Shown: positions 184 through 39,900 of the stretch, one piece after another
Numbering within the stretch: position 1 is the stretch's first letter
How the letters are laid out: each line of letters opens with the position of its first letter
Origin: Phoronis australis
Lineage: Eukaryota; Animalia; Phoronida
Assembly: GCA_002633005.1 (NCBI GenBank)
Contig: NMRA01000015.1
Span: 1,657,439 to 1,721,438 of the forward strand
Reading direction: 5' to 3'
DNA: 64,000 bases
Program-made: the position numbers and the translations under genes
Notes under the pieces: generated by a model
Database searches by the model: none
The model's input: the letters and a program-made list of their open reading frames with translations, nothing else
What the model was told of the DNA's origin: nothing

Positions 184-270
184 GCTGACAATAACATGTT
201 GTTCTAGCCGCTGACAATGACACCTTGTTGTTCTAGCCACTGACAATAACATCTTGTTTTTGTAGCTGCT
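184..270 (+). repeat. ~29-bp tandem repeat x3 spanning the CEP104 3' splice site
   Basis: ctgacaataacat(c)ttgtt(g)ttctagc units, with AGs at 206-207, 235-236 and 264-265 (the last is the functional acceptor). Confidence 0.75.
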
Positions 271-1071
271 GAGCCTGATAAAAATCACTGTCCTATGTGT
301 CATAAGAACTTCCCTGGAGTTGGTGAGGAAGCATGGAAAACACATTTGATGGGACCCAATGGATGTAAACAGAACCCTCGTCGACTGAATGCATCCAAGG
401 GTGAGTGCTTAATCCAGTTTCAGGACTAGGGGAGCAGAACAAAATTTATCAATACGATCCAGTTTCGATATTTTCTTATTGATACGTTATTTTATGGGTA
501 CTTGCAAGAAGTGGGCATGAAAATAAATATGTGCAAAAGTTATTCATACGAAACTGGTTCATTCACCTCACTGGGCAGACTCAAGTTCAGAACAAGACTT
601 CATAAGCAAATCTGCTGTACTTTTGTCCGATGTACTATGAGACATACCAATATTCTCAAAACTTGCTGAATATCAGCTGCGAAGCCAACTGAAACTGTTG
701 TAGATTAAGTGTTTTGACCTTCTGCATGTAGCCCAATTTCCCTAGTATATGGCTGACAACAAACCTCATAGTTTCACTATTGGTATTGTATAGGTATTTT
801 TTATTACTCTCCATATGTACTGTTAATTGAGTTCTGCTGTGTTACCCTATTCGAGATTTGTCTGATGCGTTGATAGGGTGAGGTGTCGACCAATGAAACT
901 TAAGGTCCGCTGATCATAATTTTCCCACCTAACTGTTGCGATAACATGGAGATTCACCATCGAAAAATTCTTATACTAGTTGTAATTGTCTTTTCAGGTG
1001 CGAGAGGAACCAAGCCCTCTGGGAAGGCTGTCGGCAAGGGGGGTCAAGTGAAAAGGTCACCGAGAAAATAA
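266..1071 (+). CDS. CEP104: Centrosomal protein of 104 kDa, last two coding exons (266-400, 998-1071)
   Basis: Exon 266-400 (tgtag| ... |gtgagt) reads AEPDKNHCPMCHKNFPGVGEEAWKTHLMGPNGCKQNPRR, matching the C-terminal zinc finger of CEP104 (human, recalled: NRCPLCHENFSPGEEAWKAHLMGPAGC). A phase-compatible terminal exon 998-1071 (tttcag|) reads GARGTKPSGKAVGKGGQVKRSPRK*. AATAAA at 1157-1162. Confidence 0.88.
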
Positions 1072-1196
1072 CGGATAGTCTCTGGTCAACCGCCAATGTA
1101 ATTTATTGTTTGTAAATATGGTAATTGAATTGTGAACTGATTTACGAAGAGGTAAAAATAAACTAAGTATATTTTTCAATGATTCCTTAAAGTAGT

Positions 1197-1310
1197 GTGG
1201 AATCTACTGACCACTACTGGTTCAGTGGAATCTACTGACCACTACTGGTTCAGTGGAATCTACTGACCACTACTGGTTCAGTGGAATCTACTGACCACTA
1301 CTGGTTCAGT
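1197..1310. repeat. 28-bp perfect tandem repeat x4
   Basis: gtggaatctactgaccactactggttca repeated four times with no spacers. Confidence 0.95.
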
Positions 1311-1605
1311 AATGTTTATCTATAGGTCATAACCCTTTTACACATCCTGTTGACTGCTACTCATCATTTAGTGTCCTGTTATTGTTACATACCTTAATTC
1401 ATCATCCTGTACAATGTCTAACACCCAAGACTAACATCTTATTCACCTTATCATTGACCCATTTCATTACAAGTCCCAACATTCATTCCGTCATTGTCTC
1501 AAATGCCACCATTGTAATAAATATCTTACAAAAAACACTGCTGGTTGAACTTTTAAAAAATTTTAAACAAATGAGAGAAACTTGCCTGTACAATTTTCCC
1601 TTTAA

Positions 1606-2076
1606 AGTTATGTGGGACCCTAAAAAATGTCCAAATTGGTTAATAAATAGCGAATATCCATGCATAGTAAACTTTCACATAGTGTGCTCAATGTGCTGTT
1701 CTTCAAAACGCTGTTGGTTTTAAACCTTTTGCATGAGGAGCCTTCAAAAAGTACGACTTTTATCATTTTCATGAAGGAACTCGTTATGTACATAAAGTGA
1801 AAACAAAATTATACTTTAGAAAATTAAAAAACATTTTTAAGATTTCAACTTGAACATTTATATTAAATGTATTTTTGGGTGTTATAGGGGCTCTTGTTGG
1901 GTCTTTTTGATGAAATTTGCCTTAAAAACATAGCAGATTTGTAAAAAGTTAAAATCATATTCTGTGGGCGTTCCTCCTTCAGAGAATAAATATATACTTT
2001 TAATGACTTTAGTACCATTGTGTATATTTGTCTAAATACACAGACTAGTCGTTAGAGTACTACAGTATACATAACT
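1606..2076. mobile_element. Kolobok-like MITE (TTAA TSD)
   Basis: TTAA|agttatgt ... acataact|TTAA; its 3' part resembles window positions 1-130. Confidence 0.5.
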
Positions 2077-2728
2077 TTAAATTTTCTGGCAAAGCACAAG
2101 AAGAACACTAGCACTTCAGTGAATTTAAGGAAGCAAGGAGTCTAAGTGCTACATAAATCTATGTGCGTAACTGTTGCACCGGCAGTGAAAGCTGTATCCC
2201 CGTGTATGTCTTAAGAGAGTCGGCGCAAACAGTGGCCTTATATTGATGTTCAGGTCTCCACAATCGAGCATCACGTTCCATGTAGTGTCACATTTGCACG
2301 CCTGTTGTCATACTAATACTGCTCACCAGGCTGTTATTCGGGGTCTTTGTGACAGGTGCCTAGGAACTATTTATGATTCAGATTTTGGGTCAAATCAGTT
2401 CAAGAAAACAAATAAGTGCTTTAGCGATTGTTGTCATATTTGCAACACTATATAGAATCCAGGTGTAGGCATGTCTTGATTCTAAAGCTTTCCTCCCTTT
2501 GTTTAATAATAGTACTTCCACCAAGTTACACTGAACTCTGGCCCTGAGTACCACCACTTTTCTGTTTCCTGTTCTCTTTACATTTTGTGCCTTTCATTCT
2601 AATGTTTTATCGTTCTGCAGTGTTCACCTTTTTGGTGTGACGTTTCCCACTGACGATGTTTAAAGTTAAAAAAACGATTCGTCTGTACTATTTCGCCTTA
2701 ATGGTGTTGTAAACAGAACATTACATCT

Positions 2729-2891
2729 CATGGACGGGTCCAGGGGGGGGTCAAGGGGTCTGAACACCCCTGTTTTCCCTTAATTTGAGTGATATCAAAT
2801 ATAGAATTTTCAAAATGTTGACTTGGACCCCCCTTTTTAAAAAGATCCTTGACCCGACCCCCCCTTTTTAAAAATCCTGGATCCGCCCCTG
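2729..2891. mobile_element. Short G/C-tract MITE
   Basis: Imperfect TIRs catggacgggtccagg / cctggatccgcccctg; flanks catct / catcg resemble a 5-bp TSD. Confidence 0.6.
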
Positions 2892-3074
2892 CATCGTTTG
2901 CTGGAGCGCTTTGTTATTTATTCCTTGTATGATGGTGACTTTAAAAAGTGATTTTGTGGTTATGATTGGGAAAGACAATGCATATGAATATGCGACTGAA
3001 GTTTTTAAGAAGCAGCTTTAACATTGGTTTGTGTCGAATACAGATATTCTCGGTTTGACAGACAGCACAGCAGT

Positions 3075-5821
3075 TTAAGGAATAATATTCCAGTGGAAAC
3101 TGGGAGGGTCCTCGTCGTTCCACTTCCACGAGCGCTTTACAACCGTGTCGTCTTGTATGCGGCTTGTTCTTGCCTTTCTGCCACCATCGTCGTTGGTCGT
3201 AAACTGTGAGTCTGTCAAGAACGAGTCTGCGTAAAATTTGTCCAAACCTGCATCTTCGTTAACGGCGCCTCTCGCGACCACATTCCCTGAAAAGATAACC
3301 ATAGAATATACACTGCGGCCCCTTGACAACCAAGTCTTGTCCTATGTTTTTAAGTTTAAAACGTTTTGACTCTTACTGATTTGTATTCGTTTAAAGGGAT
3401 GCTAAACCCTGTTTTGATGAGTTAAATTAATCCGCATTCTGTCGCCTGCTAAAGCTTCGTTGGAACACACTAAAAACTCGTACTCTCTGTGTCACAGATT
3501 GGACTATTATGGTTCTTGGTGGGTGGTCTTCCCCACAGTTGCCCTGTAAAAGCGTACTAGGTAACGCTTGACCGATTAGTAGACTTTGAAAGGAGTTTTC
3601 ATATTTACCTCAAAACTTTTGTGGGTGAGCATTACTTTCTTTCAGAGAGTTAAATGGGAAAGCTGTTATTAATATTTGTTAATTTACCAAATCAGGGTTT
3701 AGAGGCGGAATCGGGTAATTTGGTAAGACAAAGAAACCCGCGCTTTTTGTCAAAAATCTTGAATTAGGCTACTTACTGTAATAAAAAACGAGCGTGAGGG
3801 ATGAATGAACGTACCCAGTCTGTCATGTCCATCAGCATGCGATTTTTTTTGCACTTGACGTCCCGTGGGAAAATGAAAAACGCCATAGCGTTATCTAATA
3901 CTGAGTTGTCACAACTAACACAAACGCAACGCGTCGACATTTTTTATTATACTAAAAAACAAGGGAAAACGAATAGCAATATCTGACGACTTCACACTAA
4001 ACGCAATCTGATGGAAGAGAAATAGAGTAGTATTTATCGACCAATGAATGCCCTTAACTCCAGATCAGCTAATTAATATATCGTCAGATAGTGTTTGCGG
4101 GTGTTCTAATTTGACAGCTGATCTACTAGTGGGGGTTGTTTTTTGGCGTTTTTGATACGAAATAGGTTAGTGTAAGCAGTTTGATTTCTTGAGAAAATTT
4201 GAAATCACGATTTTGTATGAAAAGGCCGGTCATGTGAATAGGAACTTTTGTTTTCTTGCCGATGAATAGTTTCTGAGATTTTCAAAGATAAGGAGTATAC
4301 GTAGCGGCATGTGTTGGGGCCTTGAATAAGACACCGAGAGTCATCAAGTATAACACGTGTATTTGCAGGAATTGTTTTAACCGTTAACATGCTGACTTTT
4401 TAAATCTCAGCGGTTATTACTTGGTTGGCAGAAATTTAGGAGTAGGCGACATGTCCACTTTGGTGGCCTCTAAATCTGTCACTGTTAAAACGTGGCAAGT
4501 AGTTATCAAAGCAGTGTGTTGAAACATTCATATAAGCATGAAGAAATTTGTGGAAAGCCATGTATTGTAGTGTCTGGTTACATGAAACAGTCCAAAAATA
4601 GGGACTCAAACTGAGTTGCCGGATACTGCGTGTTTGGGGGCTTATGAGAACACTAATTTTATTTTCTTACGCTGTTTGAGTGGCTTTGATTTATATCGAG
4701 AGTGAACTCTACGTTGAATTCAAAATATTATTGAAACTAAGTAACGGATCTTTTCATGCAATGCCCCCGATTATTTTGATTGAATTAAGGGCTCAATTTT
4801 TAGTATAATGAGAAACTTTCGCTAGTTAAGAGGAGCTCATACTAAAGATAAAATGGTAGAAAGAAATATTTCATCTGTGAGTAAAGTAGGAAACAAATAC
4901 CCAACAGATTTAGGGAACTTAATTGGGTTTCTATTCGGGTCTCTTTCATGCAATCGGCTTCGGTGCCCGGTTGCATGAAACAGTCCCCTAAATCTACTGC
5001 GTATTATTGGACTTGTGAAAACATCGATTGCCCTTTCTTGAATTGTTTTAGTTTCATTGCTAAGTCAATTTTTGACTTTGATACAAGTCGAGAGTGAATT
5101 CTACGTTGAATTGTCAATATTATCGAAAATATTTAGGGATCTTTTCATGCAACACCCCCAATTTAAGGACTGAGTCTCTATTTATTTTTAATGGACTCTG
5201 GGCTCAGTTTGCAGTTCAATTATTAGAAAATATCATTAATCAAAGAGGAGCTCATAATGAGGATGAAATGATAGAAAAATATTGCATACGTGAGTCCATA
5301 AAGACGCAAATACGCAAAAAGACTTAGGGACCTTAGTTGAGTCCCTATTCGGGACTGTTTCATGCAACCGGCAACAGATCTCTTCACGGTACAACTGCGG
5401 CTCGTATTTAGAATAATTCGACGGTAAACTGCCACTCGGGCAGTACTTTACGGAGTCTAGACACGTAACCAACCTCGACTAACTTGGGCTCCATGGGCTG
5501 CGTCTGTATTTTGCTCCCAAGTTGTCAAAATTCAGAAAACGGGATAGTTAGCTGGGCCGACTTTTCGGCAGTGACGGAACCACCAGAAATTTAAAAATGT
5601 AATTCTACTGAAATTTTTTTTAATTTCGAAAAATACCATGTTGGAACATCACTAAGTTGTTTTTTGTTAAAGTACCGTCGTGATGTTTTTGATAAATAAA
5701 TCGGAATGAGTATAATCAATATGAACTCGCTTATCTTACAAAATTCACAAAAGTGTAACTCACCACAGTAAATAGCAAGGGTACATAAAAGACCCACAAA
5801 TATAAACATGATCTTCACCAT
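3075..5821 (-). CDS. Putative secreted peptide (neuropeptide/hormone) precursor, 89 aa; exons 5821-5764 and 3286-3075
   Basis: Exon 1 MVKIMFIFVGLLCTLAIYC-G|gtgagt is a hydrophobic signal peptide ending in phase 1. It joins ttttcag|GG-NVVARGAVNEDAGLDKFYADSFLTDSQFTTNDDGGRKARTSRIQDDTVVKR-SWKWNDEDPPSFHWNIIP* in frame. Upstream TATA box; minus-strand AATAAA at 2922-2917. Confidence 0.72.
3395..3702. mobile_element. Kolobok-like MITE, copy 1
   Basis: TTAA|agggatgctaaaccctg ... cagggtttag; internal ttatggttcttggtgggtggtctt..cagttgcc is shared with 14507-14858. Confidence 0.6.
4574..5371. mobile_element. Tandem pair of ~400-bp MITEs (4574-4957, 4967-5371)
   Basis: TIRs ccggttgcatgaaacagtcc / ggactgtttcatgcaaccgg; both copies share internal tcgagagtga-ctacgttgaatt and ggatcttttcatgcaa blocks. 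Confidence 0.7.
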
Positions 5822-5895
5822 GTATACAGTCAAGTCGGTCAATCGGTCGGGTACGGGAACAATAAATGTTCTTTTCTCAAAACGGAAGGTCCCCG

Positions 5896-5918
5896 TATTT
5901 ATATAAGCCCTACACGTG
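5896..5918 (-). promoter_or_regulatory. TATA box plus E-box of the peptide precursor gene
   Basis: Minus strand reads gtCACGTGtagggctTATATAAATA, about 75 nt upstream of the ATG at 5821. Confidence 0.6.
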
Positions 5919-8559
5919 ACTTGTCTGAACTGACACATGGCTGCGCATGATCCCAAATTCTCTGAAAGTGATGCATTTTGCTCATCATTACCATCAGAAT
6001 ATAAAATTGTTTGTTAGATCATTGATGATTTTCGTTTTGAATTAGTCTACTGTTAATTGTATTCGTTTTTGAATTACTCTTGCAACCGTCAATTTCTCTA
6101 TTTGCACATCGATAGCAAGTAGACATTATTACTTATTAAGCCTATAATTCCTCTGTTTTAAGTATGACCTGAACATTATACTAACTAAAGTATATTTTAA
6201 GGGACTGCATGAACAAACAATGCAAATTTGACTTGAAAGGTCACTGGGAGCCAATATACAATAGCCATCTTAGTGCCCCGGTTGAGCCATTAGTTCATGC
6301 AAACACTACTTGATGACGAACCATGGCGCAAAATTCTACAATGTCGTTTTCATCTGTGAAAGGGAATAAAGGAAGCGGCATGGTGAACAGAGAATTGATA
6401 AAATGAGCGCTGTTGAAAAGCGAGTTGTAGTTGGCATGTACAAAAGGAGAGATCAGAGATGTTCCCATCTAAAACTTCAGCATGCATTAAGAAAGCGTGT
6501 GTTGAAGGTGATCGCAAATCTGGCCGGCGTTCTGCCGCCACAGGCTATAGAAAAACGTTGAACTTACACCAATGTATTTGTGTCTATTGAAATCCTACTG
6601 GCACCTGTTGTGCATTATAATCATTCTACTGTTTGGCAAGGACGCCTTTCTTTTCTCCGGTGGAAGCATTCAGGACCGCATGATGGTTGTTTCCATCAGG
6701 TGATCGACTCGGCCATAGCCTTCTAAAATCAATTAGTGCACTAATCAGGGATTCAAATTTTCACTTTTAATTAAAGATACGCTTTCCACTTCATTATAGT
6801 TAAAAACTTCATAAAACGCGTTTTAGCGCAAGTTAGTTCAGGACAAACTTTAGCACGAAATGATCATTCAACACAACCCCAAATATTTTTATACTGATAT
6901 GAATTTATACGAATTTTACAGTTTAATTTATTATAATCGTGCACCACCACCCAAAATGGCCGTCGTAGCTAAATGACAGCTGACTCATGCATTGGGTACT
7001 AATTCACCTGCTGCCGTTTATAATGAAGTTTACGTGGAAACACTGCCCACTTAAAACAAAAATTTAAAACATAATAGTAAAATAAGACAAGTACAAATAT
7101 GGCTGAAAAACACGAAATGCATATATTATAGTGATATTCTTCGATTGACGAATCTCATGACGTGATCTAAAGTAGCGAATGTTAAGGAAGGAGCTTTTAT
7201 TTTTAGAAGAAAAATTGCCGAGTTAAAATCAATTTACGCAAACTTGTCAATAAGGTCTTACGTTAAAGATTCTTACTTGTTAAATGACAAGTTCAATTCT
7301 GCGAGTAAAAATGTTTTTAGTCTACTCGTGCAGTAGGTTTTGCCGTGCACTTAGGCCTTCTCTACGTCGGTGTGCGAACTTTGTTTCTGTACGTGCGTAA
7401 TGATATTCGTGACTAAATCCTGGAAATTAAGGATCACAAAGGGATTCCACAGTCCTAGTATTAGTAAGTGATTCCCGTTCGCCCAGTGTGGGGTGCCTTA
7501 GGATGTTAAGGTTAGGATAAGGTTTATCATTGAATGTTTTCTGGTGAACGATTCTGTTAGTGTCATTGCTGCTTCTGAAGTGTAGAATGATTGCCAACAC
7601 TGAGTAAATATCAAAATTAATTGACTTTTGATCACAAAACTTGCTTGTACCTCACAAAGTCAATAGCATCACCATTTAAATTGCTCACGTGATAGATATA
7701 GGCACCAACTTCCAAACTAACATTGTACGCAATGATTTGAACGGACAATGTATTGCCCGCACTGCGTATTTGCACGCATATTGTCATGGTAACTTGATCA
7801 CTTGGTTATTCTCCTCACAAAAAGCACATTTTACGAAGCTTTTTGTGCTGTATACGTTTGCCAACACTGATGTTTTATAGTATTGAGGTACCCGCGTTCT
7901 CACGGCACGGATAACCAACGATGCCGCACTTCGTGTCATCATAGATGGTGTCATCGACAAATAGCGAAGTATAGATAAAGTTAAATCCGCCTTGTTTAGC
8001 TGACTAAAACACGAAAATAGATATTTTACTCCAGCTCTCTAAAAATTGGACTCATAACATTCTCTACCAGCCGTGATAGGATTTTCTTTCTATCACCAAC
8101 AGAAATGTAGAATTCCATCAATGAGTCATTTCACGCCTAACAATTAAACCTTTCTGGGGTTGGCAAACCCTAAAATTGCACAGCACCCATTTGAAGTCGC
8201 CTGTGGCCTGGGGCTGGTAAAGGAAGGGGAAATCTATTATCGTAAGGCAAGTTATGGGACCGATTTTATCATGTTGTGAGTACAAGGCCAACTGAGCAAG
8301 GCACTATGAGCTTTAAATAAGACTGCATTATTTTTGGGCCGCGCCGGTGTAGTAGACTTGTCACAACATCTACATATGTGGGGTAGAGGCCAATTTTTAT
8401 TTGCGTGAACCAATCGTAGGAAGCTCACCAACGGTCCATGCACGAGTTTTGTCCCCTGGACTTGACTGGCAGCTTTCATCAAGGTTAATGCCGGAGTAGG
8501 GCGATCCCGGTAGGCTCAGTTCACAACGCCTGTAAAACTTCTGGTGAATCGACAACTAT

Positions 8560-10690
8560 ACACAATGAGAAAAGATATTCTCTGGACTATTAGTGATTGT
8601 AGGTTTTGCGAAGGCGTTTGACTCTGTATCCTGGAATTGTATTCCCAACGTGCTTATTTTTTATTTTGGAAATAGCTTTATTATGTGTATTTATTTCCTC
8701 AATACGGGATCTCGATTCTCCATGATCCAGAGAAATTTCGCTCCTGATTACTTTGAAATTGGTCGCATGTGCCGACAGGGGGGTCCAATTTCGCCATATT
8801 TGTTGATCATGTGTGTGGGGATTATAGGTATCTTATATAGGCAAAATCTTGAAATTAAAGGAATAGATGTAGGCACCTGATCTGACAGAATAATGCAATA
8901 TGAAGATGTTGACGTTATTATACTCGATGCTTCGAGTGAATCTCTGAAAGTATCCTTGATCTACTTGATCAGTTCTACAAGTTTTCGGGCTTGACGCCCG
9001 GAATCTAGAGAAAACAGAATGCGTGTGGGTCTGAGCTTTGAATTACAGTGACAGACGCTTATGTCCCAAGAAGAACCTAAAATGGAGAAGAGAATATGTT
9101 GCAATAGTTACATTTAGTTTAGTCCTTTCTCGAGTGACTTCACTAAACTTAAGGAAATTCAAAATAGTATAAATTCTTTGAATATGAGAATCTAGGCAAA
9201 TTAACGGCAGTGAAATCTTTTTTTATGGTTTCTAAACTTGTCATTTTATTTGTTTCTCTACTCTTCACCAGCTAAGGAAAATATTCATAGGATTGAAAAA
9301 CTCTCATAATTTTATCTGGGGTAATAAAAATGATTAAGACTTCTGTCTTGGTTGTTGTAAAATGAGCCATATTGAACCAATCACTAAATCACTGAAATCC
9401 TCATGGTTTTATAAAGATGTTTCTTCAACTAATAACGACCTATGGCAAAACATTCTCTTTCCGAGTATTCCCTTAAATATCCACAGAAATACAAAAGCAT
9501 ACATAATATTTTCTGGAAAGAATTATTTAGTGTTGTCAATAAATTCCCCCAAACTTTCCCTGTGCAGCATGACAATATAACATATGAATCCTACTACAAC
9601 CTGGAAAAAAATATTTACAACGATAAATTGGATTTTGAGAGATTCCAGGCAAGGTGGTCTTTTTTTTGCCTAACTAGCTTTTAGAGGGTCCGATAATGTT
9701 CGTAATTTGTTTGATGTACGCTTAACTAGATTTCATATTGCTGCACAACTATGTACTGGTTGGTTGAATTAATAAATGTTTCATCTAAAAAAAAAATAAC
9801 ATATGAATCCTTATGGTTCAATTCCATGTTGTTTGCAGGCAATAGATACTTGCATTATGAAAAATGGCATAACAATAATATTGTGCACATTTATAACTTT
9901 TAAGACTCACTGGGAAAGTTGATGACGTATTAACAATTCTATAGATCTGATGACTTTTCCCCATGTTTCACATAATTTTAATGCTTGCGGAAAACATTAC
10001 GTAAATTTATCTCAAACTGTTTCGTAACCTTCATTCTTGTTTTTGTACTAGAAAAAAATGAAGTTAGTTTGCCAAACATCCAGCCAATACTTTCACGTAT
10101 CTTACTTTCGCTAAATCCAGGAAAATTTGTTTACAAATCTTTGCTTAACCAAAAAAAAAATAATAAAATTTGAAAAAATGGAACAGTTTTATAAACTTCT
10201 TGAGTGACGAGTGGCACCTGACGACAAGCCGACAGCTGTGCAGTTAGCTCTACGAATGCTTTAAAACTGAAACGATTTCAAATTCGTTTGACACATAGAA
10301 AACTTAGCACTAACATTCTTTTCTTGAAGATTGGAGTTGTTATTTGACATATGTGCAATTTTGCGGGGAACAACCAAAGAAAGCTAGTCATCTATATTGG
10401 TCAAATGCGTGCAATCTTTTTGGTTCTGGTTCATTGGATAAATCTAAAAGTTGATTTACCTTAACTTATGGTATTGAGGACGACATAACCGTCGGGAAAT
10501 ACAGAACCAAAACTTTTGGATTTAATAATAAACTTAAGCAAGTACCACATACACCGCCAAATATTTGTCAAATGCTTTTCATGTTTTAATTTCTTAAAAA
10601 ACAAAAATCTTTGAATATTAGAGTTGAGAAAATTATTTTCATAAAAACTGTTAATTGCAAATTTTCAATTGTCTATAGACCCATAAAGTT
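8560..10690 (+). mobile_element. Degenerate L1/Tx1-clade LINE, 5'-truncated ORF2 (RT to C-terminal zinc-binding region)
   Basis: GFAKAFDSVSW, CRQGGPISPYL and a QYEDV (YADD-like) motif, plus FQIRLTHRKLSTN..C..C near 10270-10400; many stops and frameshifts. Confidence 0.85.
9593..9795 (+). mobile_element. 203-bp 5'-truncated LINE 3' end nested in the L1/Tx1 relic
   Basis: 16-bp TSD ataacatatgaatcct at 9577-9592 and 9796-9811; encodes YYNLEKNIY..FQARW; AATAAA at 9771 followed by an A-tail. Confidence 0.8.
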
Positions 10691-18630: not shown

Positions 18631-19380
18631 ATGGCGACACCCGTGACTGACGGCCTGCCGGACAACCACGTAGAGTTGTTTGTTAAAGCTGGCAAAGACG
18701 GAGAGAGTTATGGAGCCTGTCCATTTTGCCAGCGCATCTTCATGATTCTGCTGATAAAGGCGAACGTTGGTCAGCTGACATTCACTGTGACGACAGTCAA
18801 TATGTCCAAACCACCAGAGGAGTTCAAGAAGTTGTCTAGTCGTATCCCCGTTCTCATTCACGACGAGAAAGTCATTGCTGACAATGATGAGATTGTACAC
18901 TATATTGACAAACACTTCCCTAGGCCTTCTCTCTCTGTTGACAATAAGAAGGCAGTGGAGTGCTGCTTGCAAGTTTTCTCAAAGTTTTCATTCTACATCA
19001 AAGACGTGACGCACTCAACCAGCCATCTCGAAATGGAGTTGAAGAACATTGACGACCATCTGCAGTCGGTAGGCACCAAGTATTTGTGCGGCGATGACCT
19101 CACTCACTTGGACTGCCTCATGCTACCCAAACTTCAACACATCCGAGTGGCTGCCAAGGCTTTCAAGAATTTTGATATTCCCAAGCAATACACAGCACTG
19201 TGGACTTACCTAGCACATGCCTATGAAAATGACGTATTCCGTAACACGTGTCCCTCCGATCAGGAGATTGTCTACCATTGGTCCAGCAAGCAAGAGACTG
19301 CACAGCTGCCAAAGAACATGGAGAACTTTTACTTGTCTGATTCTCATACATATTCATTCGATGTGCCCCTACAGCTGTAG
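18631..19380 (+). CDS. CLIC: Chloride intracellular channel protein (CLIC, GST fold), 249 aa, intronless CDS
   Basis: VELFVKAGKDGESYGACPFCQRIFMIL, TVTTVN, YLCGDDLTHLDCLMLPKLQHIRV and FRNTCPSDQEI are CLIC hallmarks. An in-frame TGA at 18595 makes ATG 18631 the start; a likely 5'UTR acceptor tttag| at 18584. Confidence 0.95.
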   Translation: MATPVTDGLPDNHVELFVKAGKDGESYGACPFCQRIFMILLIKANVGQLTFTVTTVNMSKPPEEFKKLSSRIPVLIHDEKVIADNDEIVHYIDKHFPRPSLSVDNKKAVECCLQVFSKFSFYIKDVTHSTSHLEMELKNIDDHLQSVGTKYLCGDDLTHLDCLMLPKLQHIRVAAKAFKNFDIPKQYTALWTYLAHAYENDVFRNTCPSDQEIVYHWSSKQETAQLPKNMENFYLSDSHTYSFDVPLQL

Positions 19381-22692: not shown

Positions 22693-25198
22693 GGAGTGGC
22701 GATGCCAAGCCCCCTGTCTCTTCAGAGAAGCCTTCTGGACAGTCACTGTGCGACTTCACCATGCAGTTGGAGGAGTATACACCTACTGTAAGTTACATCT
22801 AGCTGGTCTGTCAGAAGTCAACATGTCGTCTTCTCTCACCAGGATGTAATCTTCTAACGCACACTCAACTCAGAGTGAGACTGGAAACTAACCAATAATG
22901 TTGCATGATTTAAGTAGAGATTTTTAGCCATAACATGTCATGCGATTGATCAGTTTTTGAGTTGAGTTTCGAATGAAGAGATTAAACTCCTGGGCTTGAT
23001 GTTAAATCATTTTACTTGAAATCGAACTCAAAGATATCTTCTTTTCTACTTGAATAGTAACTCAAAACATGCTTGAGTACATTGTGGTTTACGCCGATAA
23101 GAGTCTAGTAAGTCCAAATTATCATTTGAGTAGAAACTGGAGATATTGAGCTCAGAATTAAACTTATAACTTTAATGCAAAGTAGGATTACAAAATCATC
23201 TGTGTAAACCATAATTATGGACAATTATCCCGAGTTCAATTTCAAGTAAAAAGCTTACACTGCAGGCCCTGGTTTATTTGTGTTTAGGCCGCAAAAATCA
23301 ATAAATTGGTGAAATGCCATTCACAAAGCCACGGGCCCTCTGAAACGAATGTCTTCAATTTGAATGATGTACTTCTGTGGGAAATGTGAGCAAATGTCTT
23401 AAACTTGTAATTTAAAGTATTGGGTACTAGATTTGTTGACCATGAAAGATTGTAAACTAACCGTAAACTCGTGGGTTAACAACCTGTGCGCTTAAGGGAA
23501 GACGGGGATGGGTGATCAAACTGCATGGGCATTAACCCATGAGTTTACGGTAAAAGTTGTTAATTGCATATTTTAAATTTTTCTATTGGACATTTCCAAA
23601 TCCCCCAGCTCTATGTTCAAAGTGCATTGATCTGAGAGACTTTTGATTTTGTTCAGTTTCTGGACGTCAAATTTAGAATTCAATTGGGGAATGTCACTTG
23701 TAAGAATACGTGCGTTTACAGTTTTTTAGTAAATAAATTTAAATTTTGAATTACTCTTTCAGATACCAGATGCAGTGACAAGTTACTATCTCAACAGGGC
23801 GGGGTTTGAGGCGAGCGACCCCAGAATGTAAGAGACAGGTGTCCATATGTAATGCAGAATTAATGCTCGATTTGTGTTGATGGTCTTGTTATGAGTTTGG
23901 AGCAGTCTCCTCTTCTCAACTCTTAACTTGTCCACGTGATTACACTGGGTAACCCATTTAGTGATAATTACCCGAGTAAAGTAGAGTAATTACTGGACAT
24001 TAAGCTCTACTGTCACAGTGCAGACAGTACTCAGTCAGTGGCATTACTGAATAATTCCCTGTGTGGCCTTGTTGATTACAGATCCTGTTTCTGTAGGCTT
24101 TCACCAGTGCAGAACCCCCGGAGTTTCATTAATTTGAAAGATACTACTAAATTGCTACTCTGTAGGTGTTTTACTGTCATCTTGTCCAAGTTCTTAATTG
24201 TGAAGTATTTTGTCATTAACTTCTGTGGCCATTTTGTCCATTCATCTCTAGAAAAAAATACATTTAAAATTTCTACTTAAAGATGTCATGCTGTAATAGT
24301 TATTGCTTTTCAGTGTTCCACTTTATGAAACTATTTAAATCTTAACTTAGAAGGAAACAACAATGCTGTCATTCTATCACGTCATGCTGTACTTGTTGAA
24401 CAGTGCTGCTGACGTCATGCCAACAATCGAGCTCGAGACTTTCATTTAATGGAGCCCGGATTTGTGTTAAAATTTGTTTTGTGAACTTTTAGTGAAATGA
24501 AGAGGGAAGAATGTCCACTAAGTTCTGATGATGTCATTGGTTCTTTCAGTGTAAGACTAGTGTCTCTGTCTGCACAGAAGTTCATATCAGATATAGCCAA
24601 CGATGCCAAGAAACACTGTGAAATGAGAGTGTCTGGTCAAAGTGCAAAAAAGCAAGGAAAGGTATCGTGACATTTGAAACTTCTACTAAAGGCAGTTGGG
24701 CTTTTCTCAGTTCTCAGTACATTTAAGATTTAAATGGCTATTTTTTTCAGTAAGTTGACTGATCAATAGAGCAGAGATCGAACTAACGTGAAATATCAAA
24801 ACTTTGACAAGCTACTAACCTTTGTGAATTGAAAATCGTATTGTTACAAACAAACCTGCACGGGGAAATTATTTCGAAAAGGAACACAGAGCTTTTTTCC
24901 CATTTCAGATTTCTGTTGAGAAGTGATAAAATAGAATTTTACTATTCCACCAAATTGCATTCTAATTTGAAGACGGGAGCTTTACTGCCTTTGTATTACG
25001 TATACATACATACATTGAGTGGTTTAATGGATGTCATGCATTGTATATGTAAGGTGTCATACATTTCTTATTAATTTTTAATAAATTTTTTTGTAATTTG
25101 TTTGACAGGACAAGAAGATCACACTCACAACAGAAGATCTAATCCCTGTTCTCTCGGAGTATGGAGTGAATGTTAAGAAGCCGCACTACTTTACGTAG
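22693..25198 (+). CDS. TAF10: Transcription initiation factor TFIID subunit 10; exons 22693-22787, 23763-23827, 24550-24661, 25109-25198
   Basis: Spliced product ...[14 protein letters not shown]|[22 protein letters not shown]|[26 protein letters not shown]...K|[29 protein letters not shown] is the TAF10 histone fold. All junctions are GT-AG and phase-consistent; AATAAA at 25462. Confidence 0.96.
22988..23272. mobile_element. MITE-like inverted-repeat element in a TAF10 intron
   Basis: ttttacttgaaatcgaactc ... gagttcaatttcaagtaaaa inverted repeat. Confidence 0.45.
23460..23551. mobile_element. ~90-bp Tc1/pogo-like MITE (hairpin)
   Basis: accgtaaactcgtgggttaa ... ttaacccatgagtttacggt; CCGTA-type terminus. 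Confidence 0.6.
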
Positions 25199-30988: not shown

Positions 30989-33900
30989 CTAACCTAAACT
31001 GTTGTTAGAGTCTGAGCAAGAGAGATTAGTCTCAGACTGGAAGGTTGTCAAACTCTTCTGAGATTTGCGCACATTCCAGTGAAGACAGCCAGCTAAACTG
31101 GCGAACCAGTCACTCACATGGTCCTTCTTGCATATCGATGGCACAGGGTAGATAGAGGTAACAATACGAAGACTGAAAAGGAATCCGATACGATTAGTTG
31201 TACTCTGTATAGTGTTTCCTACTGGTGACAGATGGCGCTGTGTGCAGGCCAATCCATCACAGTAGATAACAGAACATCAGGACTCCTTACCTTGAAGACA
31301 TTAGTTAAATTGTAACGCTTATAATGAACTGTGCATACAACAGCCTCACTACAGATTGAACTTCAATAAGCAATTCTCGCACAGTCTGTCACATTACACG
31401 AGGAGTGTTTCATGGTTCACAAAATTGACAATTAGTGCAAAATTGAAAAAATACACCAGATTAACGGGACACCGGTATGAAAATTTTGAAATTCATGATG
31501 TTATGGTTGTAGTTAACCATAGTGTAAAATTAACAACTGCTCAGCAGACAATATTGAACAACATCAGGACTGGTCAATCTCAAATTCTTGTCCTCCAAAT
31601 GTTCACACGCATACTGGATAATACTGATAAACTGTCCACTAGTTTGTACTCAGATGGTAACAGGTGCATTGATGGTTTGGTTCCCACTCAGTTTTAACCA
31701 ATTTGTCAATTTTCAAGACTATTCCTAGAGCCACTTCAGTGAGATAATAAGAGTTTCACTGTTTTAGACAAGTGAAAGATTTTCACTTGAAAAGCACTTT
31801 AATCAACACTGATAATGCAAAACACAGCAGTTCTATAACACAACCAAACAGTCCTACAGCAGGCCAAGCTAAGCAGCTGTGCAGTTGTTGGTGTGACTCA
31901 CACTTCATCAAACTGCAGCTCATGTCTACCCCGTCCATCAAATGCTATGTAAACTGTGTTCCTGGCATCAGACGTGACGCGCACCTGTAACACAATCAGT
32001 GGGAGGTCAGCAGAGCAAGACACAGGACAGATATTCGTAATCACATGAATGCATTTTTACTCGGACAAAAACATGATTTTTTATGGAAAACGCCGAATTT
32101 TCCACAGACACAATTTTTTTCACATGAAACTTGCAAATTCCTGTCTGGGATTATCATGTTAGGCCTTTTAGCCACAAAACTAGTCTGTCAAAAATAATAC
32201 TTCCATTTTTTCAAGGAATATTGATATCTTCATTTTTGACATCAGAGTTCTCCAGCTAGAAAGTCTTAATAGAAATTCCAGACACAGTTTTGTAGCTAAA
32301 CAAATAAAGAAACAAAATTTGCAAGTTTCATGTGAAATAAATATTTCACGTTTGTGTAAATTATGGCGATCTTTGTAAAAAATCAAGATTCTTTAGAAAA
32401 CAATGCAGTCATGTGATAATGAATATGTGTGCATGTTTTTTGTGCATAAAAAAGGTTCTTGGAGAATCAAGGATTTGAAAAATACATAGTTGGGTTTACT
32501 ATTACCAGTTAAAAATATTATTTAAGAAATTTGATCCTCGGTAACAAAGATATCTCTGTACTTTAAGTCCACCAGTCTATACAACAAGACCCATGTGTTC
32601 ATGCACAAGTATCGTACTCACCATGACCTCAACTCCAGCAGGTACAACAATGGGTCGGAATGACAGCGAATGTGGGCAGATGGGGGTGATGAGGATAGCA
32701 GGGATGGTGGGGTGAACCATGGAGGCACCAGCACCAGCTGCATAGGCAGTACTTCCTGTTGTAGTGGAAATGATCAGACCTGCAGGCAAGAGTGGTAGTT
32801 TATTAAACAGCATGGGGACATTGAAGGTCACTATTAGCAGACCTGCAGGCAAGAGTGGTACAATTTTGTACACAGCATGGGGACATTAAAGGTCACTATT
32901 ATCAGACCTGCAGGCAAGAGTGGTAAAGTTTTGTAGGCAGCATTGAGACACTGAATGTCAGTATTATCAAACCTGCAGAATGGAAGACAGTGCTATGTGC
33001 AGAATCTGAGGCCTGTGAAGGTAAGAAAAATAAGGCCAGCATGCATGCACAGTAGAGTCATGAACATAGTTTGGGGGCACTGCATGTCACTATAATCATA
33101 CTAAGAGGCAAGCATGGAAAAGTTCAGTACAGTCTGCCATCAGTGAAGATAATTAGTATCAGACCTGCAGGCAAAAGTGGTTGTGGTTTTTTGCACACTT
33201 ACAAAGAATTATGATAATGCGGTACTCAAAAACAAAACATTAGATTTGGGTAAAGCTTTATATACAGTACGAAGACAGTGAAGAAAACTATCAAGAGTGG
33301 TAGAATTGTGTGATCAGTTTGGGGACTGCAACTATGCCTGCAGACAGAAGTGAGAGACAAAGACCAGGCCTGCAGGCATGAGTAACGCGGTTAATCTGTA
33401 CATAGTTTGAAGACAGTGATGGACTTTTGGGCACAAGTGCTAGTAAGAGTTAACATCTCAGTTTGGAAGCAAATCAACAGTAATTACTTGGCGGAATTCT
33501 TTGAATTCCGTCAAGTATGTTGGTCTGACAGCAAGTTTTTTTTGTTTGTTCGCACTCTACAGGTCGCAATTTTCGTCCGATTTTCACGAAATTTGAACAC
33601 GACGTGTAGACTGGAAAGTCCTGGAAGCCTATTGTTTTTGGTCATGATCGGATACAAAATAGCGGACGTGGCGGCCATTTTGTATAAAATTTCACAGTCA
33701 AATACTCGTAGAGGCCGCATTTTTCGACCTACAAAGCTGAAAATCGGTGCGATTATACTAGAACGCATGTGCTACAACTCTGCAGAAAACCGCTGACTTC
33801 TGGTTAAAGATGGCGGAAATATTGGACGTGGCGCATGCGCACCCCGAAATATGGCTAAAAACGTTTTCTCCTGTAGAGGGCGCAATTGCAAACCAATCAC

Positions 33901-36900
33901 TTTCAAACTGGTCATGTGTTTGTTGAGTTTAATAAGCTTTTATAAAAAATTATTGGACCGGAAGTCAATTTCAAGATGGCGGCTGTGGCGCATGTTCACA
34001 CGGTTTCAATCGCTCTGGTGTCGCATTTTTAACGGGACGAGTAAATGACGTGAATTTTTGCATGTGGATTCCTTGAAGTATGGCCTTTCAAAAAGTCTGC
34101 GAGAGCGTATTTCTCAGACTTANNNNNNNNNNNNNNNNNNNNNNNNNNNNNNNNNNNNNNNNNNNNNNNNNNNNNNNNNNNNNNNNNNNNNNNNNNNNNN
34201 NNNNNNNNNNNNNNNNNNNNNNNNNNNNNNNNNNNNNNNNNNNNNNNNNNNNNNNNNNNNNNNNNNNNNNNNNNNNNNNNNNNNNNNNNNNNNNNNNNNN
34301 NNNNNNNNNNNNNNNNNNNNNNNNNNNNNNNNNNNNNNNNNNNNNNNNNNNNNNNNNNNNNNNNNNNNNNNNNNNNNNNNNNNNNNNNNNNNNNNNNNNN
34401 NNNNNNNNNNNNNNNNNNNNNNNNNNNNNNNNNNNNNNNNNNNNNNNNNNNNNNNNNNNNNNNNNNNNNNNNNNNNNNNNNNNNNNNTTTATTGTAGTTG
34501 ATTGTATGCTCTCTATTTGATTTCTTCGCTAGTCACATGAATGTTATCGTGTTTGCCAAACTACCACTTTAGATAGAGTTTTGAACGGGCTTTCATTCTT
34601 TATTGTAGTTGATTGTATGCTCTCTATTTGATTTCTTCGCTAGTCACATGAATGATATCGTGTTTGTCATCTTTTCGATTAATTCCGCCAAGTGTCGCTC
34701 CTCCGAGCGCTCTCGGGTTGGAAGTCATTAAAAATACAGAGTGATATTGAATGTGCACACCCCGTAATGATGAGGACTACTTGATTTGTACATTAAAAAA
34801 TTCAACAAAAGTTGCCACACTTTAATCAATAAATTGACTGATAATATTAAGTTAGCTGCACTTCAAGACACCAGCGTCATCACTGGCTTTGATCTGTGTA
34901 AACAAACAACCAACTCACCGTCCCCCTGTACTGAGGTAACCATCTGCTCATTTATATACATCTCAATGTTACACAGGTATGATGAGGGGCCTCGGTCAAC
35001 GACTACATCATTGAGTACCTGCAAAACAGGTCTCACTGGTCAATATTCAGGTACATCGTGCGAAAGAAAGGTGAGAGACCTCGGTCAATGATTACAACAG
35101 TGAATACCTGCAAAATAGGTCTCTGATCTATCTCGTGAACAAAAGGCGAGAGACCTCGGTCAATGACCACATCAGTGAGAACCCGCTACTAAACAGGTAT
35201 GTAACTTGTAAATATAGAGGTCATTATTCTACAGGAAAGGTGAGTGACCTCCAACACAACTTAATATTACAAGAGACGTGAGGTGGTGGGGTTAAAAAAA
35301 TACCACACAGTCCATGAAAACGTAGCTCACAGTATTTGCAAGATTTCTTTCCACGATCATTATTTGCTCAGATAATATCACCCCTACATTACAACTGAAA
35401 ACCAGCATCCATTTTTGGGATTGGTGAAAAGCAAGTGGTAATGGTAAGACACTTTTCAAGAATTTATTAATCGGATACCATCCCGATTCCAGTTTCAAGT
35501 CTACTTTGGTTTTAGTGACAATGTTGTTCAGTAATGGCGAGGCTGTTCGCAAGGTGACCGAATGTCCTGTGACACTGTCCTACACTAACAGAAAAAAGAT
35601 TTGCCTGCAGCCTAGGTGACTGAGCTTGACCATTTAAGTGAATTTTTAAAAATCTTTAGCAATAGCAGACGTACATTTACATGCAGCTAAGAAGACTTTA
35701 CCTCATTTAAGCAAATTTTTTGTATATTTAGCGAGATTACAGATTGTCTAGGAGTTGATTTCGATTTGATGCTTTTCCTTAGTGGCATTAAATCATTGCA
35801 ACACTAGAAGTTCATACATAACATGTCAAGTTTTGTGCACAACCACAAATTTTAGACTTGATTTTCAATAATCTTTTTAGTAAGCCTGATATACAAATTG
35901 ACAAAACTTAAAGTACCCCCATAGCTAATACCAACTCATCAAAGCAAAATTTCCAAAGCACTACGCACTAGTAAGGGTTTACAGTTCTCCAGAGGGACCA
36001 GCGCACTGTCCTGCTTCTTCAAAATAGAGCACTTCAACCTTGACCGCAACATCAGCTTAGCTTTGCCTGCAAACAGTGGAAACCTTAGGCCTTGTTTACT
36101 TAGCAAAGGTTAGTTTTCACGTAGCAAGCCATTCAAACTCTTACTGATATTGCTGTATAAAATTAAGCTTAATCTGACTAAGAATGCACAAAATACAAAA
36201 TCTGAAGGTTAGCCGTTATCAATTCAAAACAAGAGTGGTTGGCATATGTTGTATAGCAGTTGTAAGTGGTATAGAAATATCCTATATGATGCAGTTTCTA
36301 AATTCTTATACAATTTCAACAGTAACCCAGATAGCATCCTCAAAACATCTTGACCTCTCACCTTCAATAACATTTGTTACTTCTTGACGGAAATCTTCAA
36401 ACACAGTCGGTGTCAAGAAGCCAAGTGAACCGAGGTGGAAAGCTAGCACCGGAGGCACACTTGTCTGAAACAGGGAGAAGAAATGAACTGAGATTAAGAC
36501 ACCGAGAAGAAAATAATTGAGAAAGAAACACAGGGGAAAGAAACTGAGACTCTGATTGAATATAGGACTCGCAACAGTCAAGATATTTTTGTTCATTTGC
36601 CTATTTAGATACGACTTATAGCAAAAAACGCATTCAATTCACCAATTTACCCACAATCCCTTCATGCCAAAGTATTACTAATTAAAGGTCAAGGCTAAGT
36701 TGAAACTCATACAAAACAAGTTAGAAGCGGTGAATCTTCTCATTGAAGTAACCAATGAACTGTATTTGTTCTATGGTGTTCTCCTATGAAATTAGGAATG
36801 TCAAATGATCGTGAATAAGTTATGATTTATTATTGTTTCGCATCTAGTTATTCACCTGGATAACTGATAGTGCCACCATTCTCTAACACTACACTTATGT

Positions 36901-39900
36901 TGCATGAACAGTTACTACGAGCCAGAAGAATGGTATGTAATGGTATTAAGTACATGTCTAAGGTAACCGGTCATCTGCACCTTTCATGAAAATAATGGTC
37001 AACCGTTAACGAAAAAATGATACCATCAATACAAACACATGGAGACCACTCATTGACTGAAAAACACACCTAAAACAAGGAAGATGCGTACAGCAAGGTA
37101 CCATCCCCACCCAGATATATAATCAAGTCTACCAGTTATTGACTGAACAACACACCTGGAACAAGGAAGATGCGTACAGCAAGGTACCGTCACCACCCAG
37201 ACATATAATCAAGTCTACTTTATCCTCCAAATCTTCTCCCTCACGGAATGTGTAAATATTCTTGCGCAGATCTTGAAACTCAGAACTAGCCTGAAGTAGA
37301 GCTTCTTGCTTTACCTTTTCTTCAAGAACCACCACCATGGACTTTTCCTGAAGAACATCATACGCAGGCAATGTAAAAATTGGCACTTGTCAACCCAAGA
37401 CCACCTCATTTCTGAGCCCAAGACCACCTCTAATCTGAGCCCATGGCCACCTAACTTCTGGGCCCAAGACCATCTCATTTCTAGGCCCAAAACCACCTAT
37501 ATTTGCTTGAATCAAAAACTGACCAATCGCATTGCAAGAAATTTTTAAGTTCCTTGGAAGTGTAAAATATGATCTATCAATTTCAAAGATGAGACACGTT
37601 GTTTAAATTTGGTTATTCCGAGCCCTGAGAATTTGACTTAGGCAGTGGCTGCCATAGTAACGAGAACATTTATCTCTCATGCAAATTGAAATAAGTGAAA
37701 CAGCAAATCCTGATCATAACCTTTCCTTAAAGGGGCGTTTTTACTACTTATGACCTTAGCATGAAAATCCTGGACTAGAATTATAAGATACCAGTCTCAA
37801 ATGGTTTTTCCACATCAGTGATTGATTTGTATCATTCAAACAATTGAGATATTAGGTGAAGACCTTGAAATTTTGGCAACTGTTGTTTGGTCTGAAATTT
37901 GTGAGATTTTACCGTAAGGAAAAACTTGAGGTCTAATGTTCAGTAGCCCAAATCAAAAGTTAATTTAATTGCACATTTAACCTTTTTAAAAATAAAATTA
38001 AAAATTCAAGTACAAAAACTAAAATCTTAGTAGTACAAGACAGACAAAAATTATAAACCAATCAGTTGCAGACCTACAAATAAAAGTAAAAGATAAACTA
38101 AAAAATAAAACAAAACTGTGAAATGGATACCAGTTTGCAAGACAACTGTATCCTTGTCTCACCTTAATAATGTGAAATGGATACCAGTTTGCAAGACAAG
38201 TGTATCCTTGTCTCACCTTAATAATCCATGTGATGAGCTCCAAGAACGGCGCTATTACGGTCTGGTCAAAGTGTTTCTTAATTATGAGTACAGCCAAGGG
38301 TGGTTTGCACCATGTCAGCACCATGTTGTCTGGGTCCTGCACCATGCTACAACAGAGGGCAGTCATGTTAGCGTTCTTAATGATGAGTACAGCAAATAGT
38401 GGCTTGCACCATGTTAGCTGGAGCCTGCACCATCCTACAACAGAGGGCAGTCATGTTAGCGCACTCATGTTAGCGTTCTTAATGATGAGCACAGCCATTA
38501 GTGCCTTGCACCATGTCAGCACCATGCTAGCTGGAGCCTGCACCATCCTACAACAGAGGGCAGTCATGTTAGCACAGTCATGTTAGCGTTCTTAATGATG
38601 AGTACGGCAAATATGGGCTTGCACCACGTCAGCTGGAGCCTGCACCATCCTACAACAGAGGGCAGTCATGTTAACTTTCTTAATGATGACTATAGCCAAT
38701 AGTAGCTTGCACCATGTCAGCACCACGTTAGCTGAAGCCTACACCATCCTACAACAGAGGGCAGTCATGTTAGTGCATCAATGGCCAATCAGTCATAAAA
38801 AACAAACAAGTTTCTAGACATGTTTACATTGTATCTAGAAGTGCAGAGTGTTGATTTATGCTTAACATTCTTAACTACTCAGAACCTGGTCTTAAGCAAT
38901 AACAAATAACATATTTGATGAAGGACCAATTTGGGACCAATTATAATGAATAAGATTACGTAGGACAATGGACAAATGTACTTTAGAAAGTCATGTCTCA
39001 AAAATGTCAGAGCAGATTAATTTGAAACTTTCTACTACTATGCTTTATGCAATGTCTCCCAATACATTCGGTACCATACTTTACAGTACAACGCTTTATT
39101 GCGTTCGAGGCCAGAGGCCCAAAGTACAACAACAAACATATCTACAAGCACAGTTAAATACAAAACATCAAGTTTAAGAATTTTTCTCTGGCTAAATATA
39201 CAATGTTTGCATTAGGAGTCTTTCCTAGTTGAAGTCTAATACAGGGTTATGATTATGGTTATCAGAACTTATATTTATATATTGCTGCCGGAGATCTGCA
39301 TAAGCACTGCACACCAACAAAAATTATAGTTTCTTCAACGTAGTTTATATTAAAGAAAATACAAATTCTATTACAATAATCTATTTTGTTGTGCCTTTCT
39401 GCTTCCACTATCAATTTGTGGTTCGAACAATGAAACCTTGAAATTTTTGTATAAAATGGCGCGGTAGATTTAACTGAAAGTATTCCTCTGAAGAGTAATT
39501 AATTTGAAAGATTTAAAATAGAACAGTTTGCGGTTTTCATGAATGTCAACTCCCCAACCTTGTATGTAACAATCAATCACTCTCTCAGAAATTGTTTTAA
39601 AAATGTTACTTCATATGTTACACCTTGATTTAACCACACTTCAAAGAAACCATACTCGGACAAAAGCGATCTGACAAAAGAAGCCCAATTATAAGAAAAT
39701 CTACCATTACTGTCAAGAATAAACAGCATGTCATACATATGCAGCTCAGACATACCTGCTTGTTACGTAAACAGTGGATAAGGGCTGCAAGTAGAACAAG
39801 AAGTGCTCACACCAAGCACCTTTAAAATGTTCTACGCCGTCATGCTTTTTAAACCATCAGATTTCAGCCACAAAACAAATTGTTGGAAAAATCATTTTAT

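What the first reader, a model, noticed from the sequence alone, without database searches (positions are those of the whole stretch)
2917..5918. Candidate novel neuropeptide/peptide-hormone precursor gene hidden as two small exons
Seen in sequence: an E-box and TATA box, a 58-nt exon encoding a signal peptide, a GT-AG intron with matching phase, a 212-nt terminal exon and a poly(A) signal. The product is MVKIMFIFVGLLCTLAIYCGNVVA|RGAVNEDAGLDKFYADSFLTDSQFTTNDDG-GRK-ARTSRIQDDTVV-KR-SWKWNDEDPPSFHWNIIP*. Established: a signal peptide, an acidic propeptide, a dibasic KR convertase site and a C-terminal peptide are the standard prohormone layout; G-RK could additionally signal amidation. Inference: the predicted 18-mer SWKWNDEDPPSFHWNIIP (three Trp, no Cys, no amide) matches no neuropeptide family I recognise, and the ORF track splits the gene into two meaningless ORFs, so annotation could easily miss it.
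Basis: partly seen in the sequence, partly recalled or inferred. Interest (0 to 1): 0.85.

Follow-up and report, generated by a model that had tools for sequence, protein, structure and literature searches.

The report
Orphan tryptophan-rich peptide hormone precursor
A small two-exon gene in a marine-invertebrate-type (lophotrochozoan) genome is transcribed and spliced as proposed, has no detectable relative, and likely encodes a secreted precursor that is predicted to release an 18-residue tryptophan-rich signalling peptide.

Summary
The gene is real. RNA reads from three runs join the two exons at exactly the proposed GT-AG intron (16, 16 and 109 junction reads, all on the minus strand). The spliced RNA has one long reading frame of 89 residues from its first ATG: hydrophobic N-terminus, acidic middle, RK, RxxR and KR sites, then an 18-residue tail holding all three Trp and all three Pro. 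No relative was found in 5.8 billion and 1.84 billion proteins, Pfam, PDB or four neuropeptide-catalogue supplements, and no paralogue reads appear at 80% likeness. A neighbouring CLIC gene places the host among lophotrochozoans, outside molluscs and most annelids (quick tree). Best reading: a lineage-restricted prepropeptide whose tail is a non-amidated signalling peptide (0.55). Neural expression, secretion and cleavage are untested, and dibasic sites alone are no better than chance here (49% of shuffles). The tail loosely echoes protostome somatostatin-like peptides (WK, PPS, late W) but lacks their cysteine loop and intron. Orphan peptide precursors are common in these phyla, so this is a new member of a known kind.

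The parts
5913..5918 (-). E-box CACGTG (within GTCACGTG), 8 nt upstream of the TATA box; function untested
   Evidence: sequence; GTCACGTG occurs 2 times in the 64-kb window
5898..5905 (-). TATA box TATATAAA
   Evidence: sequence; RNA depth is zero in the bin 5912-6020 and many molecules end at 5848 and 5861
5764..5861 (-). Exon 1 (5' end at 5861 or a little further up); coding part 5821-5764, first ATG of the RNA, most of the predicted signal peptide
   Evidence: no upstream ATG in 5822-5900
3287..5763 (-). Intron, 2477 nt, GT..AG, phase 1; holds two diverged copies of a roughly 390-nt repeat with inverted ends
   Evidence: 141 junction reads in three runs; repeats
3075..3286 (-). Exon 2 coding part: end of signal peptide, acidic pro-region, basic sites, C-terminal peptide, stop
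3159..3179 (-). Candidate processing cluster R56-K57 (after G-G) and R59-T-S-R62 (RxxR)
   Evidence: sequence; use in the cell is inferred
3132..3137 (-). K70-R71, predicted prohormone convertase site
   Evidence: sequence; cleavage inferred
3078..3131 (-). Predicted mature 18-mer SWKWNDEDPPSFHWNIIP, net charge -2, monoisotopic mass 2267.04, free C-terminus
2917..3074 (-). 3' UTR with AATAAA at 2922-2917
   Evidence: sequence; reads thin out across it

Best explanation
This is a transcribed, spliced gene with an 89-residue reading frame that likely encodes a secreted prepropeptide, predicted to be cut at Lys-Arg to release a non-amidated 18-residue Trp/Pro-rich signalling peptide restricted to this lineage. 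Shown: transcription on the minus strand, the splice, the reading frame, absence of detectable relatives. Inferred: the hydrophobic N-terminus sends it into the ER (cut after about residue 20-26, most simply V-V-A at 24); PC1/PC2-type convertases cut after K70-R71 (and perhaps at RK or R-T-S-R) in secretory granules; the acidic middle is a spacer; the tail is released from neurons or endocrine cells and acts on a receptor, most likely a GPCR, through its aromatic residues.
For: Junction reads 16/16/109, one strand, one upstream partner only. Longest ATG frame of the spliced RNA is 89 codons against 27 or fewer for all others. Kyte-Doolittle 2.4-2.8 over residues 1-17, hydrophilic after 25. All 3 Trp and all 3 Pro lie behind the last KR within the final 18 residues: 7 in 100,000 shuffles (pattern chosen after looking). 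The only coding difference seen in reads is synonymous (3249). Moderate level (3.1, 3.4, 16.8 exon-2 reads per million) and no paralogue reads at 80% likeness fit a single-copy signalling gene better than an expanded venom family (established knowledge, recalled). Single-sequence fold gives no confident structure (pLDDT 49.8; weak). Lineage-specific precursors of this general build are documented in nemerteans and phoronids (PMC8557429 sections 5, 6) and Platynereis (PMC3890597 passages).
Against: KR or RR occurs in 49% of shuffles of the post-signal sequence, and KR/RR plus a second dibasic plus RxxR in 6.7%. The tail has none of the usual hallmarks (amide donor, pyroglutamate, disulfide, repeated copies). 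No orthologue, so no conservation test. The RNA runs carry no tissue labels; the five-fold difference between runs is uninterpreted. Signal peptide judged by hydropathy only.
Confidence: 0.55

Rival explanations
1. A secreted, convertase-processed peptide from non-neural gland cells (mucus, defence, venom, pheromone, adhesive or matrix), using the same signal-pro-KR-peptide layout.
For: The layout is shared by toxins and defence peptides (established knowledge). Fast-evolving gland peptides are often orphans. Five-fold difference among runs could reflect a tissue. Nemerteans, one candidate host group, secrete peptide toxins (listing only, PMC7460313).
Against: No close paralogue in reads or window; level is modest; tail is acidic (net -2) and cysteine-free, unlike most antimicrobial and venom peptides (recalled).
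Confidence: 0.25
2. A small secreted protein of about 65 residues that is not processed; the basic pairs are incidental.
For: Dibasic sites at chance level. The low-confidence model draws several beta strands across the KR site. A sub-threshold Pfam START_2 match covers residues 8-64 of the exon-2 product (E 0.014, 15.7 bits against cut-off 23.6).
Against: No disulfides; pLDDT under 70 everywhere; strong compositional split at the KR site.
Confidence: 0.11
3. A cysteine-free, linear descendant of the protostome somatostatin/urotensin-related (SSRP-like) gene.
For: [quoted passage not shown] SSRP-like peptides are reported absent in nemerteans and phoronids (section 11). The neighbour CLIC and SSRP-like have accession numbers 86 apart in Gigantopelta and 441 apart in Pecten, which suggests one linkage group (inference from how accessions are issued; positions not checked).
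Against: No cysteine loop; residue before WK is Ser, not aliphatic or aromatic; single phase-1 intron where all SSRP genes examined have a phase-0 intron in the pro-region. BLOSUM local score is matched by 42% of shuffles. An unrelated look-alike (GGRWamide, p 0.00015) turned up as easily. Accessions are 323, 3616 and 4308 apart in Capitella, Mizuhopecten and Lingula, and 2565 in Lottia, assemblies with short scaffolds where this is uninformative. Host phylum not fixed.
Confidence: 0.07
4. A spliced non-coding RNA with an incidental reading frame.
For: No homologue and no protein evidence.
Against: Frame starts at the first ATG, spans the splice in phase, covers 270 of about 480 nt and opens with a signal-like segment.
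Confidence: 0.02

Closest known systems
Lineage-restricted lophotrochozoan proneuropeptides (nemertean DMF, AGEamide, GxGH, ND; phoronid LKFL; Platynereis-only precursors) in PMC8557429 and PMC3890597
   Same: Signal peptide, acidic spacer, dibasic sites, short peptide, no relatives outside the lineage
   Different: No shared sequence motif; those families have orthologues in several species or mass-spectrometric support, this one has neither yet
Protostome somatostatin-related (SSRP-like) precursors (PMC9048919)
   Same: One peptide at the C-terminus after KR; WK dipeptide, prolines and a further Trp towards the end
   Different: No cysteine loop, acidic insert between WK and PPS, phase-1 instead of phase-0 intron, shorter precursor
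MIP/allatostatin-B and annelid WI peptides (x-W-x6-7-W-[G/I/L]; PMC3890597)
   Same: Starts S-W directly after KR; two spaced Trp with acidic residues between; WI peptides are non-amidated too
   Different: Spacing is W-x9-W or W-x11-W, four residues follow the last Trp, one copy instead of many
Nemertean GGRWamide (PMC8557429 supplement)
   Same: Pro-region stretch F-T-T-N-D-D-G-G-R resembles F-T-T-D-G-G-R
   Different: No W-G-R amide end, no cysteine ring, not repeated

Membership tests
Prepropeptide (neuropeptide/peptide hormone precursor, general class) | Transcribed gene with the proposed reading frame | tested here: met
Prepropeptide (general class) | Cleavable N-terminal signal peptide | tested here: inconclusive
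   hydropathy and V-x-A fit; no SignalP on hand
Prepropeptide (general class) | Basic convertase sites flanking a short peptide | tested here: inconclusive
   KR, RK, RxxR present; KR/RR in 49% of shuffles; Trp/Pro partition 7e-5
Prepropeptide (general class) | Conservation concentrated in the mature peptide | tested here: inconclusive
   no orthologue found
Prepropeptide (general class) | Neural/endocrine expression and processed peptide detected | not testable with these tools
   runs have no tissue labels; no mass spectrometry
SSRP-like (somatostatin/urotensin-related) | [quoted passage not shown] | tested here: met
   sequence; definition from PMC9048919
SSRP-like | Disulfide loop C-x-W-K-x-C | tested here: not met
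   no Cys after the signal peptide
SSRP-like | Phase-0 intron in the pro-region | tested here: not met
   single phase-1 intron at codon 20
SSRP-like | Activation of an SSRP-type receptor | not testable with these tools
   needs a receptor assay
MIP/allatostatin-B and WI | x-W-x6-7-W-[G/I/L] at the peptide end | tested here: not met
   pattern absent (definition)
MIP/allatostatin-B and WI | Multi-copy precursor | tested here: not met
   one copy; reads show no further exon
GGRWamide | G-G-R-W-G-R amide end and cysteine ring | tested here: not met
   compared sequences; G-G-R-K here, no Cys

The most novel reading that the evidence does not exclude
The tail is a linear, cysteine-free descendant of the protostome somatostatin/urotensin-related peptide, kept on its ancestral linkage group in a lophotrochozoan lineage where that system is reported lost, and still signals through its WK and tryptophan residues.
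Probability: 0.07. Interest if true: 0.75.

Novelty: new member of a known kind. Interest (0 to 1): 0.47.

Why it matters
It adds an expressed, unannotated peptide-precursor candidate from a poorly sampled lophotrochozoan group, with an exact mass that can be looked for and a short peptide that can be made and screened against the many orphan GPCRs of these animals. It also shows the kind of gene that homology-based catalogues miss. If the SSRP link held, a reported loss of somatostatin-type signalling would instead be a loss of the disulfide ring, which would change how such losses are scored.

Tried and rejected
No whole genome is held, so paralogues were sought only in the window (nothing beyond 5-7 residue chance hits) and in reads. 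No indexed RNA holder was listed; the three informative runs were added by species label. All database searches used the 69-residue exon-2 product, not the whole precursor: word search near length, no candidate; longer proteins, 20 candidates, 0 at E<=10; phmmer on 1.84 billion, 0 at E<=0.001; PDB 0 at E<=10; Pfam only START_2 below cut-off, rejected. The ESM Atlas gave no answer. Main-text motif search: 11 papers, 10 listed, none relevant by title. Supplement motif searches: PMC8557429 no SWKW, WNDED, PPSFHW, WKWN, WNIIP, DDGGRK (some long runs are cut in display); PMC3890597 11 files searched, 5 not searched; PMC9048919 no SWKW; PMC6425005 6 files, the large one cut when stored, PSFHW and HWNII 0, 16 hits to shorter words of which 7 passages were shown, none a like precursor. 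Exact-word searches miss diverged orthologues. WWS peptide rejected (long Cys-rich C-terminus). Synteny literature searches gave nothing usable. Searches seen as listings only, apart from papers named as read. Earlier scan findings: none by sequence or place. The careful tree did not finish; the quick tree used 68 rows (window CLIC, the top 60 hits and 7 further named rows of 120 listed).

Full report
Observation. On the minus strand the sequence shows an E-box (5918-5913), a TATA box (5905-5898), an ATG at 5821 with no ATG in the 79 nt above it, 58 coding nt, a 2477-nt GT-AG intron in phase 1, 212 coding nt ending in TAA at 3075 and AATAAA at 2922. Joined, these give 270 nt and 89 residues. 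The ATG context is middling (T at -3, G at +4); a second Met at codon 5 would give the same kind of N-terminus. A hydrophobic start with a donor and an upstream TATA is found at this one locus of the window and in 0 of 12 simulated windows.

Expression. Four runs with the same species label were listed, without tissue. In the three raw-read RNA runs, 16, 16 and 109 reads skip exactly this intron, all in the direction of a minus-strand RNA; both exons are covered, the flanking intron ends are nearly empty, and depth stops below the TATA box. About a fifth of each run was read. Laid at 80% likeness on exon 2 alone, 261 of 263 reads were 95% alike or better, every loose end was exon 1 (19, 17, 113 reads, agreement 1.0), and the one coding difference is synonymous. 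So there is one splice form and no close expressed paralogue in these samples. Levels are 3.1, 3.4 and 16.8 exon-2 reads per million. The fourth run (contigs, perhaps DNA) held neither exon, which proves nothing.

Product. Residues 1-17 are strongly hydrophobic; 25-55 are acidic (net -5); then G-G-R-K, R-T-S-R, a 7-residue spacer, K-R and the 18-residue tail (net -2, 2267.04 Da). Against the reading: KR or RR arises in 49% of shuffles of the 65 post-signal residues, and the whole set of basic sites in 6.7%. For it: all three Trp and all three Pro fall behind the last KR in 7 of 100,000 shuffles, a pattern chosen after looking. A single-sequence fold of the exon-2 product is not confident (pLDDT 49.8, pTM 0.31).

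Host and neighbours. The window also holds a likely last exon of CEP104 (250-426, weak Pfam hit), a one-exon CLIC frame, TAF10 and NAD kinase. CLIC is about 55-62% identical to named mollusc, annelid and brachiopod proteins alike; in a quick tree it lies outside the mollusc clade (98) and the main annelid clade (95), unresolved beside Lingula, Owenia and one unnamed protein. No named nemertean or phoronid CLIC was among the hits, so those groups are possible but not shown.

Relatives. None: (exon-2 product as query; short divergent peptides escape such searches). Exact motifs of the tail were not found in a main-text search or as a like precursor in the supplements of PMC8557429, PMC3890597, PMC9048919 and PMC6425005, with the gaps listed under Tried and rejected. 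Papers seen: PMC8557429 abstract, sections 5 and 6, supplement parts 1, 30, 93 and search passages; PMC9048919 passages, section 11, supplement part 2 and passages; PMC3890597 passages and supplement passages; PMC6425005 supplement passages only; PMC13311285 passages.

Resemblances. Three were weighed. MIP and WI peptides also begin S-W after KR, but their W-x6-7-W ending and multi-copy precursor are absent. Nemertean GGRWamide resembles nine residues of the pro-region (p 0.00015) without the W-G-R end or cysteines. Protostome SSRP-like peptides share WK, PPS and a late Trp and sit singly at the C-terminus; the loose pattern occurs in 0.06% of shuffles but the alignment score in 42%, and two defining features, the cysteine loop and the phase-0 intron, fail. 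With some 70-100 families to compare against, matches of this strength are expected. One independent hint remains: CLIC and SSRP-like accessions lie 86 and 441 apart in two chromosome-scale mollusc annotations, and 323 to 4308 apart in four scaffold-level ones; at best this means a shared linkage group, and positions were not checked. From memory, unverified here: human CEP104, NADK, CLIC4, UTS2 and CORT all lie on 1p36.

Mechanism and verdict. Most likely (0.55) the product enters the secretory pathway, is cut after Lys-Arg and releases a non-amidated Trp/Pro-rich peptide that signals to a receptor; a gland peptide (0.25), an uncut small protein (0.11), an SSRP descendant (0.07) and a non-coding RNA (0.02) are the rivals. 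The gene and its splice are shown; secretion, cleavage, cell type and target are inferred. Lineage-restricted precursors are a known and common kind in these phyla, so novelty is that of a new member, and interest is moderate (0.47).

Noticed in passing
window 18631-19377 (+) and 22719-25192 (+): Intronless CLIC frame directly followed by TAF10 exons; in Mytilus the two genes also carry adjacent accession numbers, so this pair looks like an old microsyntenic block.
   Followed up: partly
window 250-426 (+): Zinc-finger exon with a below-cut-off CEP104_ZnF match (E 0.00066), likely the last exon of CEP104, tail to tail with the peptide gene.
   Followed up: partly
window 32577-37389 (-): NAD kinase exons (four Pfam matches).
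   Followed up: no
window 4570-5378: Two diverged tandem copies (about 390-415 nt apart) of a repeat with inverted ends inside the intron; it draws reads on both strands from other loci, MITE-like.
   Followed up: partly
window 2731-2891: Short element with imperfect inverted ends and G/C runs inserted about 25 nt past the poly(A) signal.
   Followed up: no
window 61734-62501 (-) and 8569-8877 (+): Reverse-transcriptase fragments of non-LTR retroelements.
   Followed up: no
window 34120-34488; 38274-38773; 52201-52416: A 365-N assembly gap within the NAD kinase region, and two minisatellite arrays.
   Followed up: no
window 5846: A 5' UTR difference (G>T on the plus strand) fixed in the reads of X1 and X2 and absent in X3: an allele between samples.
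   Followed up: no
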